In this document: positions 11,711-23,661 of the stretch, one piece after another
Position numbering within the stretch: the first letter of the stretch is position 1
Layout: each line of letters opens with the position of its first letter
From: Parvularia atlantis
Lineage: Eukaryota
Assembly (NCBI GenBank): GCA_943704415.1
Contig: CALSCO010000461.1
Span: forward strand, 1-34,968
Direction: 5' to 3'
Length of the DNA stretch: 34,968 bases
Made by a program: the position numbers and the translations under genes
Notes under the pieces: generated by a model
The model's input: only the letters and a program-made list of their open reading frames with translations
Databases searched by the model: none
What the model was told of the DNA's origin: nothing

Positions 11711-12547
11711 ATGGCCGCAGACGGTGCACCCGAGTCGCCTCTGTATGACCACATCGCGGACGCGTACAGCAGCGTGTCGCAGTACCTGCACGAGCAGCTC
11801 ACGCTGCCGACCGTCACGGCGCTGCTTGGCCCGGGTGGCGTCACGGGGCTCAAGATCGTCGACGTCGCGTGCGGCTCGGGCCCGCTCTCGCGCGAGCTGC
11901 GCCGGATGGGCGCGGCGGCCGTCGTGGGCGTGGACCTGAGCGGGGAGATGATCGCGCGGGCGCAGCAGGAGGAGACCGTGGCGCCGCTTGGGATCTCGTA
12001 CCATGGTGCGTGCTTCGGTGCGGCGCAGCCGACATGTGCCCCTCACAAACATCACACGTTCCCACGCTTCTCTCGCGCCCGCGCAGTCGGCAACGCGCTC
12101 GAGGTCGCGCACATCGGCCTGCCGCACACGGGCGAGTTTGACCTGGCTACGTACATCTTCTGCTTCGTCTACAGCCAGACGCGCGAGCAGCTGGCGACGA
12201 TGGCGCGTGAGGCCGCGGCGCTGCTGCGTCCTGGCGGGCGGCTCGTGGCGGTCGTGGCCAACCCGTTCACGATCGCGACCGCGCACGGCGACCTGGGTGA
12301 GTTCCGCATGGCGCGCGTGGTGCGCGAGGACGTGCGCGAGGGCGATGCGATCCAGATCCGCCTGGGCACGCCGGCCAAGTACGTCGAGTTTGACAACTAC
12401 TACTGGACGGCAGCCACGTACGAGGCCGTGCTGGGCGAGGCCGGGCTTGTGGGCGTGACCTGGTCCGAGCCGCGGCCGACGTTTGCGGTGCAGGCGGGTG
12501 ACACGCGCTGGCCGATGCACTCGTGGTTTACCGCGACGCGTGCGTAA
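11711..12547 (+). CDS. Class I SAM-dependent methyltransferase (one intron, 12006-12086)
   Basis: YDHIADAY, motif I IVDVACGSG, VVGVDLSGEMI, FDL, LLRPGGRLV; stop TAA 12545-12547. Confidence 0.88.
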   Translation: MAADGAPESPLYDHIADAYSSVSQYLHEQLTLPTVTALLGPGGVTGLKIVDVACGSGPLSRELRRMGAAAVVGVDLSGEMIARAQQEETVAPLGISYHGACFGAAQPTCAPHKHHTFPRFSRARAVGNALEVAHIGLPHTGEFDLATYIFCFVYSQTREQLATMAREAAALLRPGGRLVAVVANPFTIATAHGDLGEFRMARVVREDVREGDAIQIRLGTPAKYVEFDNYYWTAATYEAVLGEAGLVGVTWSEPRPTFAVQAGDTRWPMHSWFTATRA

Positions 12548-12552
12548 TCAGT

Positions 12553-12553
<1 letters not shown>

Positions 12554-12608
<55 letters not shown>
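12554..12608. repeat. (GT)n microsatellite
   Basis: Perfect GT dinucleotide run just after the methyltransferase stop codon. Confidence 0.97.
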
Positions 12609-12609
<1 letters not shown>

Positions 12610-12720
12610 TGCTGAGCCTTGTACTCTCAGTCGCCACGCTCGCCCGCACTGTGCACCACTCAACTGCAATCATGAGCCTTTACCAGGCCTCCGAGAAGTG
12701 TGTGAGCCTTCCCAGACCCA

Positions 12721-12824
12721 GCGGTCTAAGGCGTCCGTTTCAGGAAACTGAATCTACGGATCCGAAAGGGCACGAGTTCGAATCTCGTCGTCATCAGTAT
12801 CATAAACCTTGGTGACGTGGCCGA
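12721..12824 (+). tRNA. trnL-CAG: Permuted tRNA-Leu(CAG): 3' part (nt 15-73) at 12721-12796 with a 10-nt intron at 12745-12754; 5' part (nt 1-14) at 12811-12824
   Basis: GCGGTCTAAGGCG D-loop/stem; anticodon stem TCCGT/ACGGA with TT-CAG-G; variable arm CC-GAAA-GG; T arm ACGAG-TTCGAAT-CTCGT; acceptor 3' strand CGTCATC+A. The matching 5' strand GGTGACG-TG-GCCGA lies 14 nt downstream, not upstream. Confidence 0.88.
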
Positions 12825-12839
12825 ATGGGATGTGCCGCA

Positions 12840-12852
12840 TTTTTTTTTTTTT
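12840..12852 (+). terminator. RNA polymerase III oligo-T terminator
   Basis: T13 run 15 nt after the tRNA 5' fragment; no T4 run occurs between the two tRNA fragments. Confidence 0.75.
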
Positions 12853-12895
12853 CTCTTTTTCTTTCTGTCTCGTCCATGCGCGCACGATTGTGCCC

Positions 12896-12937
12896 CCGCT
12901 CGTCTCGCCGCTCGTCTTGCCGCTCGTCTCGCCGCTC
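12896..12937. repeat. 12-bp tandem repeat CCGCTCGTCT(C/T)G x3.5
   Basis: Read directly from the intergenic sequence upstream of the GH31 gene. Confidence 0.85.
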
Positions 12938-13032
12938 TTGCTCGCAATCGGCGCTGCCGCTGCCACGTGACGCGCCATCGATGATCCACGTGGCCCACAC
13001 TTTCCCCGCGTCACAGCACTACCTCACGCGCG

Positions 13033-16194
<3,162 letters not shown>

Positions 16195-16295: not shown

Positions 16296-20969
<4,674 letters not shown>

Positions 20970-21063: not shown

Positions 21064-22961
21064 TCAGACAGAGACAAACTCCTCCCTGAAGACAATGCCC
21101 GCGCCCTTGGCCAGCTGCTCCAGCAGCGGCTCGTACAGGTCCGCGGTCATCGGCGCGATGACGCCGCGCCGCGCCGCCGCGCCGTTGAGCACGAGGTCGG
21201 CCGCGATCGCCGTCGGCAGCCCCACCGTCTTGGCCATGGCCGTGTAGCCGCCGGGCGTGCCGTACTCGATCATGGTCGCGACGCGCCGCTCGCCCGCGCG
21301 GCCGGGCCAGTCGATGTCGAACCGGTGTTGCATGATCACCATGTCGCGCTCGCCCGGCCCAAACACGAGCCGCCGCTGCAGCAGCGCGCACAGGGCGTCG
21401 ATCGGCGTCGCGCTCTCGACGCGCACGCCCTCGTCCAGCACGCCCAGCGAGCGCGCGGCCGCCAGCGCCGCCGCGGCGTCCTCGGCCGTCGCGTGCGCCG
21501 GCAGCAGGCGCCGCGCCGTGTCGATGCTCATGCTCGCCACGCCGTCGAGCCCCTTGGCCTTTGCGAGCTCGCGCGACAGCTGCGCCCACGACCACGCCGA
21601 CGACGCGCCGCGCACGGGCGTCTCGGCCAGGTAGCCGAGCTGCGACAGAAGCTCCATCGCGTGCGAGAAGCCGCGGTAGCGCAGCGTGCCGCGGAAGACG
21701 TCCTGCGCCTCGGGGATGCCATAGAGGTCGCGGTAGGGCAGGGCGTTGCGGTTGGGCAGGTACTCGAGCGCGAGGCCGGCGTAGCCGAGCGTGGTGGGAC
21801 GCGCGTGGCGGAAGAGCTGGCCGCGCTCGGTGCGCTGCGCCTGGCCGCCGACGAGGTACTGCGACTCGTTCAGCCCGGCCGAGAGCACGCCGCGCGGGCT
21901 CCACGAGAACTTGTAGCCGAGGGCGTTGTCCGAGGCCTCGGGCGCGGGCAGGCCGCCGCAGACCGACCAGAAGCCGCGCACGCGTCCGCCCTGGGCGTGC
22001 ACCTCGTGGATCGTTTTGACGGCCGAGAGGTGGTCGATGCCCGGGTCGAGACCAATCTCGTTGAGCACGGTGATGCCCGCGGCGAGCGCGCGCTCGTGCA
22101 GCGCGGCCATCGCGGGCGAGATGTACGACGCCGTAACCATGTTCTTGCGGTGGCGGATGCAGAGCTCGGCCACACGCGGGTGCATGGGCGCGGGCACGAG
22201 GCTGATGACGAGGTCGTGCGCGGCCACGAGCCTGTCAAGCTCGGGGCCGTCGGGCACGCTTGCCGGGACCGCGCGGGCGACGTCGCGGTGGCCGTCGACG
22301 AGCGCCGCGGCCTGCTCCACGTCCACGCTGCCGACCGTCACGTGCGTGTACGGTAGCGCGCACAGATGGTCGACGACCGGCTGCGCGACCATGCCCGATC
22401 CTAGCAGGAGCACGCGGCGCGGCGCGAGCGACGTGACCTTGTAGTGCCCGTGGCGGCCGAGCGAGGTCTGCAGCCGCTCGCTCTGGGCGTGCGGCGCGGT
22501 GAGGCGGCCGTTCTCGGCGATGATGGCACCGCGCAGGATCGCGCTGTAGGCGTCGGGCGAGGGCGCGGTGGCGAGCTCGCGCACGTAGTTGACCAGGGCC
22601 GAGCCGAAGAAGAGCGACGACTCGCGCGCCATCTCGGCCGGCAGGTTGTCAATCGACATGACGAGCAGGCCGTCGCCCTTGAGCGTGCCGTCGTTCTTGG
22701 CGATGCGGTCGCGCCGCGCATCGTACAGGTAGAACGGGTCGTCGATCGTCGTAACGCGGCTCATGAACTCGAGCGAGCCCTCGACGTCGCACGAGATGTC
22801 GGCCACGCCGAGGAAGCGCGCGTCGGGCGCGGCCATGAGTGCGGCCGTCTGCTGCCGCGTGAGCAGGCGCGGGTACTGCGACTCCCAGTAGATGCCGTTG
22901 ACGAGCACGCTCATGTACGGGGCGATCTGGCGGCGGCAGGCACGTTGAGCACGCGACGACG

Positions 22962-23055
<94 letters not shown>

Positions 23056-23661
23056 GCGGTACATACCCGCTCGTGGAAGACTGAGGTGTAGTGGTGCGGG
23101 TTCTTGAAGTAGTCGAGCCGGTCAAACGCGCTCGCGCCATCCTTGTGCACGAGGTAGTCGCCCTCGCGCACAATGCAGCCATAGACGACCTTGGGGTCAA
23201 AGTCACGCGAGGCCACGAGTGCGGGCAGGTCGCGCGGACGAATCCACTGGTGTGGCAGCTGCTCAAAGATCTCCTGGGCGCCGCGCGAGACGTAGCCGTC
23301 GCCGGTAAAGACGCAGACAAAGGGGCCGTACTTGGCTGGGAGGCCCCAGCGCGCAATGTCGCTGCCGACGGCCTCGACGGCCAGCTTGGCGCCGAGGAGG
23401 TTGCGGTACGAGTAGGTCATGCCAATGTTCTGTGTCGGTGCAGGATCAGCGTCTGCGCGCTTGTGCGAGGGACACAGGGGGCGTGCGCACGCGCGCGCTC
23501 ACCAGGAACGGCGTGCTGTTGCCGAGGGCGAGCAGGCGTTTGCCCAGGCCGTGGAAAAAGTCGATGAAGCCGGCGTAGCCCGCGAACGTGCCGAAGCGGA
23601 CGAGGCGCTGGCCCGCGGCGTCCTTGAGCAGCTCATAGTCGATGAGGCGGATGCTCTGCGC

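What the first reader, a model, noticed from the sequence alone, without database searches (positions are those of the whole stretch)
12701..12839. BHB-like leader/trailer structure places the permutation junction at D-loop position 14/15
Seen: leader TCCCA (12710-12714) pairs perfectly with trailer TGGGA (12826-12830). Adjacent GACC (12715-12718) pairs with GGCC (12819-12822) with one mismatch, flanked by 3-nt bulges CAG (12719-12721) and GAA (12823-12825). Cutting after the second nucleotide of each bulge (CA|G and GA|A), the known splicing-endonuclease rule, yields exactly the exon ends needed. The C. merolae junction classes I recall are 20/21, 37/38, 50/51 and 59/60, so 14/15 would be a new class. 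It would imply a TSEN complex able to cut outside the anticodon loop.
Basis: partly seen in the sequence, partly recalled or inferred. Interest (0 to 1): 0.8.

Follow-up and report, generated by a model that had tools for sequence, protein, structure and literature searches.

The report
Back-to-front leucine tRNA in fungal relative
A leucine tRNA gene is written with its 3' half before its 5' half in what is likely a non-photosynthetic protist related to fungi, and its flanks pair so that the tRNA-splicing enzyme would cut and rejoin it at D-loop position 14/15, a junction missing from the published list of such genes, which covers only algae and one archaeon.

Summary
The paired segments sit at the stated coordinates. 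They flank a complete circularly permuted tRNA-Leu(CAG) gene: 3' half 12721-12796 with a canonical 10-nt 37/38 intron, 14-nt spacer, 5' half 12811-12824, then T13. Swapped in silico, ARAGORN calls it tRNA-Leu(CAG). Of 16 junction registers, 14/15 pairs best (5/5 plus 3/4; chance about 2e-4, or 2e-3 with G-U).
The motif is a relaxed HBh', not a full BHB. There is no exon-side helix, and the central helix folds about 5 kcal/mol above the minimum.
Cutting outside the anticodon loop is therefore known. The closest gene is C. merolae tRNA-Leu(UAA): 20/21 junction, HBh', 37/38 intron.
The larger novelty is the host. A neighbouring gene's tree places it sister to Fungi and rejects grouping with the plants and algae sampled. 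I found no permuted tRNA reported from opisthokonts.
Earlier scan notes report permuted tRNAs on other DNA (diatom, phages, archaea), none like this sequence. Expression, cut sites and the host's TSEN set are untested.
Verdict: new variant of a known kind, interest 0.7.

The parts
12700..12708 (+). Outer leader arm; predicted to pair with 12832-12840 and extend the clamp that closes the precursor
   Evidence: 8 pairs in the minimum-energy fold, 2 of them G-U; predicted only
12710..12714 (+). Leader arm of helix h' (TCCCA)
   Evidence: 5/5 Watson-Crick with 12826-12830; pair probabilities 0.82-0.86 for four pairs, 0.29 for the innermost
12715..12718 (+). Leader strand of central helix H (GACC)
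   Evidence: 3/4 pairs with GGCC 12819-12822; ensemble probability 0.00; competes with hairpin 12714-12727
12719..12721 (+). Predicted 3' splice site CA|G, in an open loop rather than a closed bulge
   Evidence: register scan; exon-side helix 1 of 3 pairs
12721..12796 (+). 3' half of tRNA-Leu(CAG), positions 15-73: G15, G18G19, anticodon CAG at 12741-12743, 11-nt variable arm, T arm, discriminator A73, no encoded CCA
   Evidence: ARAGORN on the swapped halves; conserved positions; anticodon stem 5/5 and T stem 5/5
12745..12754 (+). 10-nt intron at the canonical 37/38 position
   Evidence: positions 32-35 pair 4/4 with the intron, leaving 3' bulge TC|T; its removal restores a 7-nt loop with anticodon CAG
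12776..12784 (+). B-box-like T-loop sequence GTTCGAATC (B-box consensus recalled)
   Evidence: sequence; the only T-loop pattern match in the window on either strand
12797..12810 (+). 14-nt intervening sequence closing the acceptor stem; would be removed by tRNase Z and RNase P
   Evidence: acceptor stem 7/7 between 12789-12795 and 12811-12817; pathway from Soma 2014 section 6
12811..12824 (+). 5' half of tRNA-Leu(CAG), positions 1-14; G9-C12 (GGCC, self-complementary) serve both as D-stem and as the H strand
12823..12825 (+). Predicted 5' splice-site bulge GA|A
   Evidence: 3 nt between H and h'
12826..12830 (+). Trailer arm of helix h' (TGGGA)
12840..12852 (+). Run of 13 T, a likely Pol III terminator
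   Evidence: sequence
13033..15084 (+). Neighbouring GH31 alpha-glucosidase ORF with trefoil domain; used only to place the host
   Evidence: Pfam; homologs; tree and AU test on 13033-14838

Best explanation
This is a circularly permuted, intron-containing tRNA-Leu(CAG) gene, in what is likely a protist sister to fungi, whose precursor would be circularised by the tRNA-splicing endonuclease at D-loop position 14/15. Shown by sequence: the order is leader, positions 15-73 with a 37/38 intron, 14-nt spacer, positions 1-14, trailer, T13. All cloverleaf stems are intact, and the leader and trailer pair in exact register. Inferred, by analogy with C. merolae: (1) Pol III makes one transcript that starts about 25 nt before G15 and ends in the T run. 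(2) The acceptor, T and anticodon arms fold, and helix h' clamps leader to trailer. (3) TSEN binds the junction and induces the weak GACC/GGCC helix at the cost of the D-stem and the local hairpin, then cuts CA|G and GA|A. (4) The ligase joins A14 to G15, giving a circle. (5) The D-arm forms, so the 37/38 intron can be spliced by the normal ruler mechanism. (6) RNase P and tRNase Z remove the spacer and CCA is added. The product would read CUG, the commonest Leu codon in three window ORFs (70 of 149).
For: Swapped halves give ARAGORN tRNA-Leu(CAG), with U8, A14, G15:C48, G18G19, U33, G37, TTC, A58, C61 and A73. Stems are 7/7, 5/5 and 5/5. The intron has a 4/4 anticodon-intron helix. Register 14/15 pairs 8 of 9 positions, against at most 6 of 9 for the 15 other registers; chance 2e-4 to 2e-3 per register. 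The fold z-score is -2.45. The same architecture (D-loop junction, HBh', 37/38 intron) is listed for C. merolae Leu(UAA). C. merolae Arg(CCT) has an intron at 14/15. Host: the GH31 tree puts the window with 5 unnamed proteins (SH-aLRT 98) as sister to fungi plus an aphelid (99), apart from Holozoa. The AU test rejects grouping with the 5 plant, green-algal and glaucophyte rows (p 5e-8). The best named hits are a chytrid for saccharopine dehydrogenase (48%) and a chytrid for the assembled eRF1 (81%).
Against: There is no RNA evidence: neither RNA-guess run (X2, X3) covers 12553-13020, which contigs cannot turn into proof of absence. The central helix has a mismatch and zero ensemble probability. 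Even as an isolated two-strand motif it lies 1.9 kcal/mol above a shifted register. There is no exon-side helix. Yeast and human TSEN need the tRNA body for relaxed motifs, and the host's subunits could not be inspected (no genome held). No homologous permuted locus was found, so there is no covariation. Host placement rests mainly on one gene with a paralogue-rich family and no red-algal or prasinophyte row; the eRF1 tree is unresolved. The X1 contig over the locus has depth 114, against 184-196 on the flanks, unexplained.
Confidence: 0.7

Rival explanations
1. The gene is functional and permuted, but the junction is cut in another conformation. Either the favoured fold is used (3' site in the CAGC loop of the AGACC/GGTCT hairpin, 5' site beside h'), or the cut is at 13/14, by two uncoupled cuts. 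The mature tRNA would be the same.
For: The local hairpin has pair probabilities 0.65-0.94 and H has 0.00. 13/14 gives an identical mature sequence. 'No H' junctions are a recognised class in Soma 2014.
Against: 13/14 has H 0/4 and h' 3/5 with G-U. The spacing between h' and both exon ends (4+2 nt on the leader, 1 nt on the trailer) matches BHB geometry exactly at 14/15.
Confidence: 0.13
2. It is a non-functional remnant of a tandem duplication of an ordinary tRNA-Leu gene. The upstream copy's first 14 nt decayed and only 14-18 nt of the downstream copy survive.
For: The flanks weakly resemble the missing tRNA parts (6 of 14 and 6 of 15 identical, together p 0.04). GGCC is self-complementary, so H could come free from a duplication. 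No expression data. Whether the genome has another Leu(CAG) gene is open.
Against: There are no decay marks in the exons: every stem is complete and all invariant positions are kept. h' is 5/5 in exact register and is not explained by duplication (2.6e-3 alone). A T13 terminator follows the trailer directly.
Confidence: 0.12
3. It is a tRNA-mimicking RNA (YrlA-like) that is never opened, or a foreign or misassembled piece from an alga or archaeon.
For: Earlier scan notes describe permuted tRNA mimics in phages and bacteria (unchecked). The X1 contig is bounded by a GT microsatellite and a T run, so its link to the flanking genes is not shown by one contig.
Against: No Rfam match at E up to 1 in 12000-13500. 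The anticodon arm is complete, with a spliceable intron. No CCA is encoded and a T-run terminator follows, as in eukaryotic nuclear genes. Soma 2014 notes that the archaeal permuted genes encode CCA.
Confidence: 0.05

Closest known systems
Cyanidioschyzon merolae permuted tRNA-Leu(UAA), type I (Soma 2014, PMC3978253, Table 1 and Fig. 2 legend)
   Same: Class II leucine tRNA; 3' half before 5' half; junction in the D-loop; HBh' motif at the junction; intron at 37/38; short spacer (10 nt there, 14 here); T-run terminator; no encoded CCA.
   Different: Junction 14/15 rather than 20/21; anticodon CAG (C. merolae's own Leu(CAG) is permuted at 37/38); no TATA-like sequence in the 100 nt upstream; host likely a non-algal opisthokont.
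Ostreococcus tauri permuted tRNA-Ser(CGA), type V (15/16) (Soma 2014 Table 1, after Maruyama 2010, which I did not read)
   Same: Class II tRNA, permutation junction at the 5' end of the D-loop, similar spacer (17 nt).
   Different: One base further 3'; no intron; flagged there as atypical and in need of experiment; green alga. I could not see its sequence, so I cannot exclude that its register is really 14/15.
C. merolae tRNA-Arg(CCT) intron at 14/15 (Soma 2014 Table 1; Chan 2011 Table 1, PMC3218864)
   Same: The splicing cut falls at the same phosphodiester, 14/15, in a eukaryotic nuclear tRNA.
   Different: There it is a cis intron with a strict hBHBh' motif, and the permutation junction is at 59/60. 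Here 14/15 is the permutation junction and the motif is relaxed.
Thermofilum pendens permuted tRNA-iMet and tRNA-Tyr (Chan 2011)
   Same: Permuted layout plus a 37/38 intron.
   Different: Junction 59/60, encoded CCA, archaeal enzyme.

Membership tests
Circularly permuted tRNA genes (Soma 2007/2014) | [quoted passage not shown] | tested here: met
   12721-12796, 14-nt spacer, 12811-12824; acceptor stem 7/7
Circularly permuted tRNA genes (Soma 2007/2014) | Swapped halves form an ordinary cloverleaf with conserved eukaryotic positions | tested here: met
   ARAGORN tRNA-Leu(CAG); conserved positions
Circularly permuted tRNA genes (Soma 2007/2014) | Leader and trailer can form a strict or relaxed BHB motif at the junction | tested here: met
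   Met in the relaxed form: h' 5/5, H 3/4, no h; H is thermodynamically disfavoured
Circularly permuted tRNA genes (Soma 2007/2014) | Downstream T stretch, and no terminator between the halves | tested here: met
   T13 at 12840-12852; the spacer has no run of more than 2 T
Circularly permuted tRNA genes (Soma 2007/2014) | Upstream TATA-like promoter (most C. merolae genes; typical, not universal) | tested here: not met
   No TATA, TAWA or TATW in 12610-12710; richest 6-mer AATCAT
Circularly permuted tRNA genes (Soma 2007/2014) | Expression through a circular RNA intermediate to a mature tRNA | not testable with these tools
   Only contigs were available; X2 and X3 do not cover the locus
Strict BHB motif (hBHBh') | Two 3-nt bulges, 4-bp central helix, helices on both sides | tested here: not met
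   Exon-side helix 1 of 3 pairs; central helix 3 of 4
Listed junction types I-V (20/21, 37/38, 50/51, 59/60, 15/16) | Junction at one of these positions | tested here: not met
   Register after A15 scores H 1/4, h' 1/5 and would give A15 opposite C48; no register up to 23/24 exceeds 6 of 9. Both halves are contiguous across 37/38 (apart from the intron), 50/51 and 59/60.
C. merolae-type relaxed TSEN | Sen2, Sen34 and Sen54 present, Sen15 not found; many ectopic introns genome-wide | not testable with these tools
   No whole genome held
YrlA / Y RNA tRNA mimics | Match to the Rfam model | tested here: not met
   No Rfam match at E up to 1 in 12000-13500

The most novel reading that the evidence does not exclude
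A lineage sister to Fungi makes an essential tRNA through a circle, with a TSEN that in vivo cuts a relaxed BHB far from the anticodon. The 14/15 junction arose without any ancestral intron. In a tandem gene duplicate the self-complementary G9G10C11C12 of the two copies pair as the central helix, and the bulge rule then cuts both copies after A14. This junction also leaves an A-box-like stretch (leader plus G15-G18, 4 of 6 consensus positions) upstream of the B box at normal spacing, so ordinary TFIIIC could still transcribe the gene without a TATA box. More hidden disrupted tRNAs would then be expected in this genome and its relatives.
Probability: 0.3. Interest if true: 0.85.

Novelty: new variant of a known kind. 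Interest (0 to 1): 0.7.

Why it matters
Permuted tRNA genes are in print, as far as my searches reached, only for red and green algae, chlorarachniophyte nucleomorphs and one archaeon. They are tied to the idea that these organisms have unusual splicing and Pol III systems. A case on the fungal side of the opisthokonts would show that the layout can arise or persist in the supergroup whose TSEN is the textbook strict ruler enzyme. It makes an open question testable: how a heterotetrameric TSEN handles a relaxed motif outside 37/38. The precursor can be offered directly to reconstituted human or yeast TSEN. It also warns that standard tRNA finders miss such genes (ARAGORN 0 in the window, Rfam 0 in 12000-13500). 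The 14/15 position alone is a modest addition, given the listed 15/16 type and the C. merolae 14/15 intron.

Tried and rejected
ARAGORN on the window found 0 genes and Rfam on 12000-13500 found 0: both miss the permuted order. With the intron left in, ARAGORN miscalls the joined halves as SeC with a 12-nt intron. I rejected that call because the 10-nt intron restores a 7-nt loop and has the canonical 4-bp helix and 3-nt bulge.

Search for relatives to get covariation found none. Viral contigs gave 4 loci, none permuted. Metagenome contigs gave 120 loci, but the scan stopped after 20 of 64 parts, out of an estimated 410. My pattern was too loose and filled with ordinary bacterial-type tRNAs. 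Of the 124 loci, 2 had a downstream acceptor match of at least 6/7: L118 has a normal upstream half, and L037 is swapped but not at the D-loop. Genome contigs gave 14 loci, 0 with a downstream match of at least 5/7, and 13 with a normal upstream half. These collections hold little protist DNA, so the blank says little.

RNA-guess runs X2 and X3 do not cover the locus; this is no evidence either way.

The first eRF1 tree had one row trimmed at the wrong end. The corrected tree leaves the window unresolved among the major groups. The Auxenochlorella supplements held as text have no match for 'permuted' or 'tRNA', so its junction positions (Figure S1) are unseen and could include 14/15. Resemblance of the flanks to the missing tRNA parts is weak (p 0.04, and partly forced by pairing). 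The A-box match of the leader (4 of 6; 3 of 5 leader-supplied positions) is no better than suggestive.

Full report
Observation. TCCCA (12710-12714) pairs 5/5 with TGGGA (12826-12830). GACC (12715-12718) pairs 3/4 with GGCC (12819-12822). Random leader/trailer pieces from the window reach this with frequency 2.3e-4 (Watson-Crick) or 1.9e-3 (with G-U); over the 16 registers scanned that is about 4e-3 and 3e-2. Register 14/15 pairs 8 of 9 positions; the best of the other 15 pairs 6 of 9. A contig of run X1 is identical over 12617-12834, so the letters are not an assembly slip, although X1 may be the window's own source.

What the thing is. Neither ARAGORN nor Rfam sees a gene. Placing 12811-12824 before 12721-12796 and removing 12745-12754 gives an 80-nt tRNA-Leu(CAG). 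It has acceptor 7/7, anticodon 5/5 and T stems 5/5, and U8, A14, G15:C48, G18G19, U33, G37, TTC, A58, C61 and A73. The intron is canonical: positions 32-35 pair 4/4 with it and leave a 3-nt bulge cut after its second base. The same rule applied to the junction gives 14/15. A 14-nt spacer joins A73 to G1, CCA is not encoded, and 13 T follow the trailer. It is the only T-loop pattern in the window. It lies between a methyltransferase ORF and a GH31 glucosidase ORF.

The exon-side helix is missing (1 of 3 pairs), so the motif is HBh' in the terms of Soma 2014. The central helix has ensemble probability 0.00. A hairpin AGACC/GGTCT (0.65-0.94) puts the 3' site in a four-base loop, and the D-stem (0.44) uses the same GCC. 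The forced BHB form is 5.3 kcal/mol above the minimum, and 5.3-7.2 for other start points. As an isolated two-strand motif it is -6.4 against -8.3. Helix h' is well populated (0.82-0.86 for four pairs). The enzyme would have to induce H. Because A14 is present in both leader and 5' half, 13/14 gives the same mature tRNA, but its register pairs poorly (H 0/4, h' 3/5).

Host. No genome is held. In a GH31 tree of 26 rows (25 chosen from the 120 listed hits), the window groups with 5 unnamed proteins (SH-aLRT 98). This group is sister to fungi plus an aphelid (99), with Capsaspora and sponges in a separate group (98) and plants and green alga apart. An AU test rejects joining the window to the 5 plant, green-algal and glaucophyte rows (p 5e-8). 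The best named hit is a chytrid for saccharopine dehydrogenase (48%) and for eRF1 (81%). The eRF1 tree is unresolved. No red alga or prasinophyte was among the rows, and searches scored only 8000 candidates each. I put a non-fungal lineage sister to Fungi at about 0.8 and an opisthokont at about 0.9. The label 'nucleariid-like' is my recall, supported only by the title of PMC2789072 in a search listing.

Mechanism. By analogy with the pathway in Soma 2014 section 6: one Pol III transcript; leader-trailer clamp; TSEN cuts at CA|G and GA|A; ligation to a circle; splicing of the 37/38 intron, which in C. merolae is always last; then RNase P, tRNase Z and CCA addition. All enzymatic steps are inferred. 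Eukaryotic TSEN is reported to cut a universal BHB without the tRNA body, while relaxed motifs need the body (bioRxiv 10.1101/2022.09.02.506201; PMC10275265). How this relaxed junction is cut is the real open question.

Two further inferences are mine. First, G9G10C11C12 is self-complementary. Two tandem copies of an ordinary gene would therefore pair these bases as H, and the bulge rule would cut both after A14, with no ancestral intron needed. The published duplication model starts from an intron-bearing gene. The flanks resemble the missing parts only weakly (12 of 29, p 0.04). Second, unlike the inverted A and B boxes described for permuted genes, an A-box-like stretch (4 of 6 positions; consensus recalled) lies upstream of an intact B box, and no TATA is present. 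TFIIIC-dependent transcription is thus possible. Both are hypotheses.

Comparison with what is known. Soma 2014 Table 1 lists junctions 20/21, 37/38, 50/51, 59/60 and 15/16, the last for one O. tauri Ser(CGA) gene flagged as atypical; 14/15 is not among them. C. merolae Leu(UAA) has a D-loop junction, HBh' and a 37/38 intron, which is this gene's architecture. C. merolae Arg(CCT) has an intron at 14/15, and C. merolae has 14 D-loop introns. Cutting there is thus known in a eukaryote. Later reports add Auxenochlorella and Amorphochlora; a 2026 review names only archaea and algae. Searches for 'permuted tRNA' (74 papers, 40 listed; 46 since 2015, 40 listed), with 'opisthokont', with 'fungi' and for nucleariid tRNA introns showed no opisthokont case in their listings. 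The library lacks most subscription papers.

What I saw of each paper. PMC3978253: abstract, sections 4-8 and the first part of 10. PMC3728597: parts 1-2 of 6. PMC13578239, PMC12633428, PMC4494063, PMC4090602, PMC3218864, PMC10275265, PMC9602550, 10.1101/2022.09.02.506201 and 10.64898/2026.07.10.737489: passages only. PMC12633428 supplements: 3 files searched, no match, Figure S1 unseen. Soma 2007, Maruyama 2010, Fabbri 1998 and Fruscoloni 2001: not read, known through the citing papers. The unseen Auxenochlorella figure and Maruyama 2010 bear directly on whether 14/15 is new.

Relatives. Pattern scans gave 4 viral, 120 metagenome (20 of 64 parts scanned) and 14 prokaryote-genome loci. None is a D-loop-permuted gene by my stem test, so there is no covariation test. 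Earlier scan notes hold no look-alike of this sequence and none on an opisthokont permuted tRNA. They do report permuted tRNAs in a diatom, phages and archaea (unchecked). Whether this genome holds other Leu(CAG) genes remains open.

Verdict. The permuted gene is real as sequence. Function with processing at 14/15 is likely (0.7). It is a new variant of a known kind: a junction not in the published list, one base from a doubtful listed one, in a lineage where such genes were not reported in what I could search. Interest 0.7; 0.85 if the duplication-palindrome origin and an opisthokont relaxed TSEN hold (probability 0.3).

Noticed in passing
window 18436-19728 (+), inside the eRF1 gene at about 17928-20930: A 431-aa intein (starts Cys, ends His-Asn, followed by Cys; Pfam Intein_splicing E 9e-13) interrupts the release factor eRF1 in frame. 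Two paper searches listed no natural eRF1 intein, but they were dominated by engineering papers.
   Followed up: partly
L037 about 660-570 and 490-405 (- strand): Two tandem tRNA-like units with the T arm and acceptor 3' strand before the 5' half, each inside longer flanking helices, next to an ORF matching phrog_34511. The anticodon loops are irregular and no unique junction was found. They resemble the phage permuted tRNA-like RNAs in earlier scan notes.
   Followed up: partly
window 12613-12620, 12673-12680, 12703-12710: Three exact copies of TGAGCCTT at 60- and 30-nt spacing upstream of the tRNA. The middle copy is followed by a leader-like stretch containing GGCC (12686-12689), which could be an older duplicate of the leader or a promoter element.
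   Followed up: partly
window 12553-12608 and 12840-12872: A GT microsatellite and a T-rich run bound the tRNA locus. The X1 contig between them has depth 114, against 184-196 on the flanks.
   Followed up: no
window 12004-12086 and 14838-14959: GT-AG spliceosomal introns of 81 and 120 nt are skipped in RNA-guess contigs of the methyltransferase and GH31 genes. A GH31 paralogue is present in the same runs.
   Followed up: no
window 21064-23064 (-): An ORF with an AlaDh/PNT C-terminal piece fused to saccharopine dehydrogenase, i.e. the end of a bifunctional lysine-pathway enzyme. An unnamed metagenomic relative is 74% identical over half the query, with contigs up to 79 kb in its cluster.
   Followed up: partly
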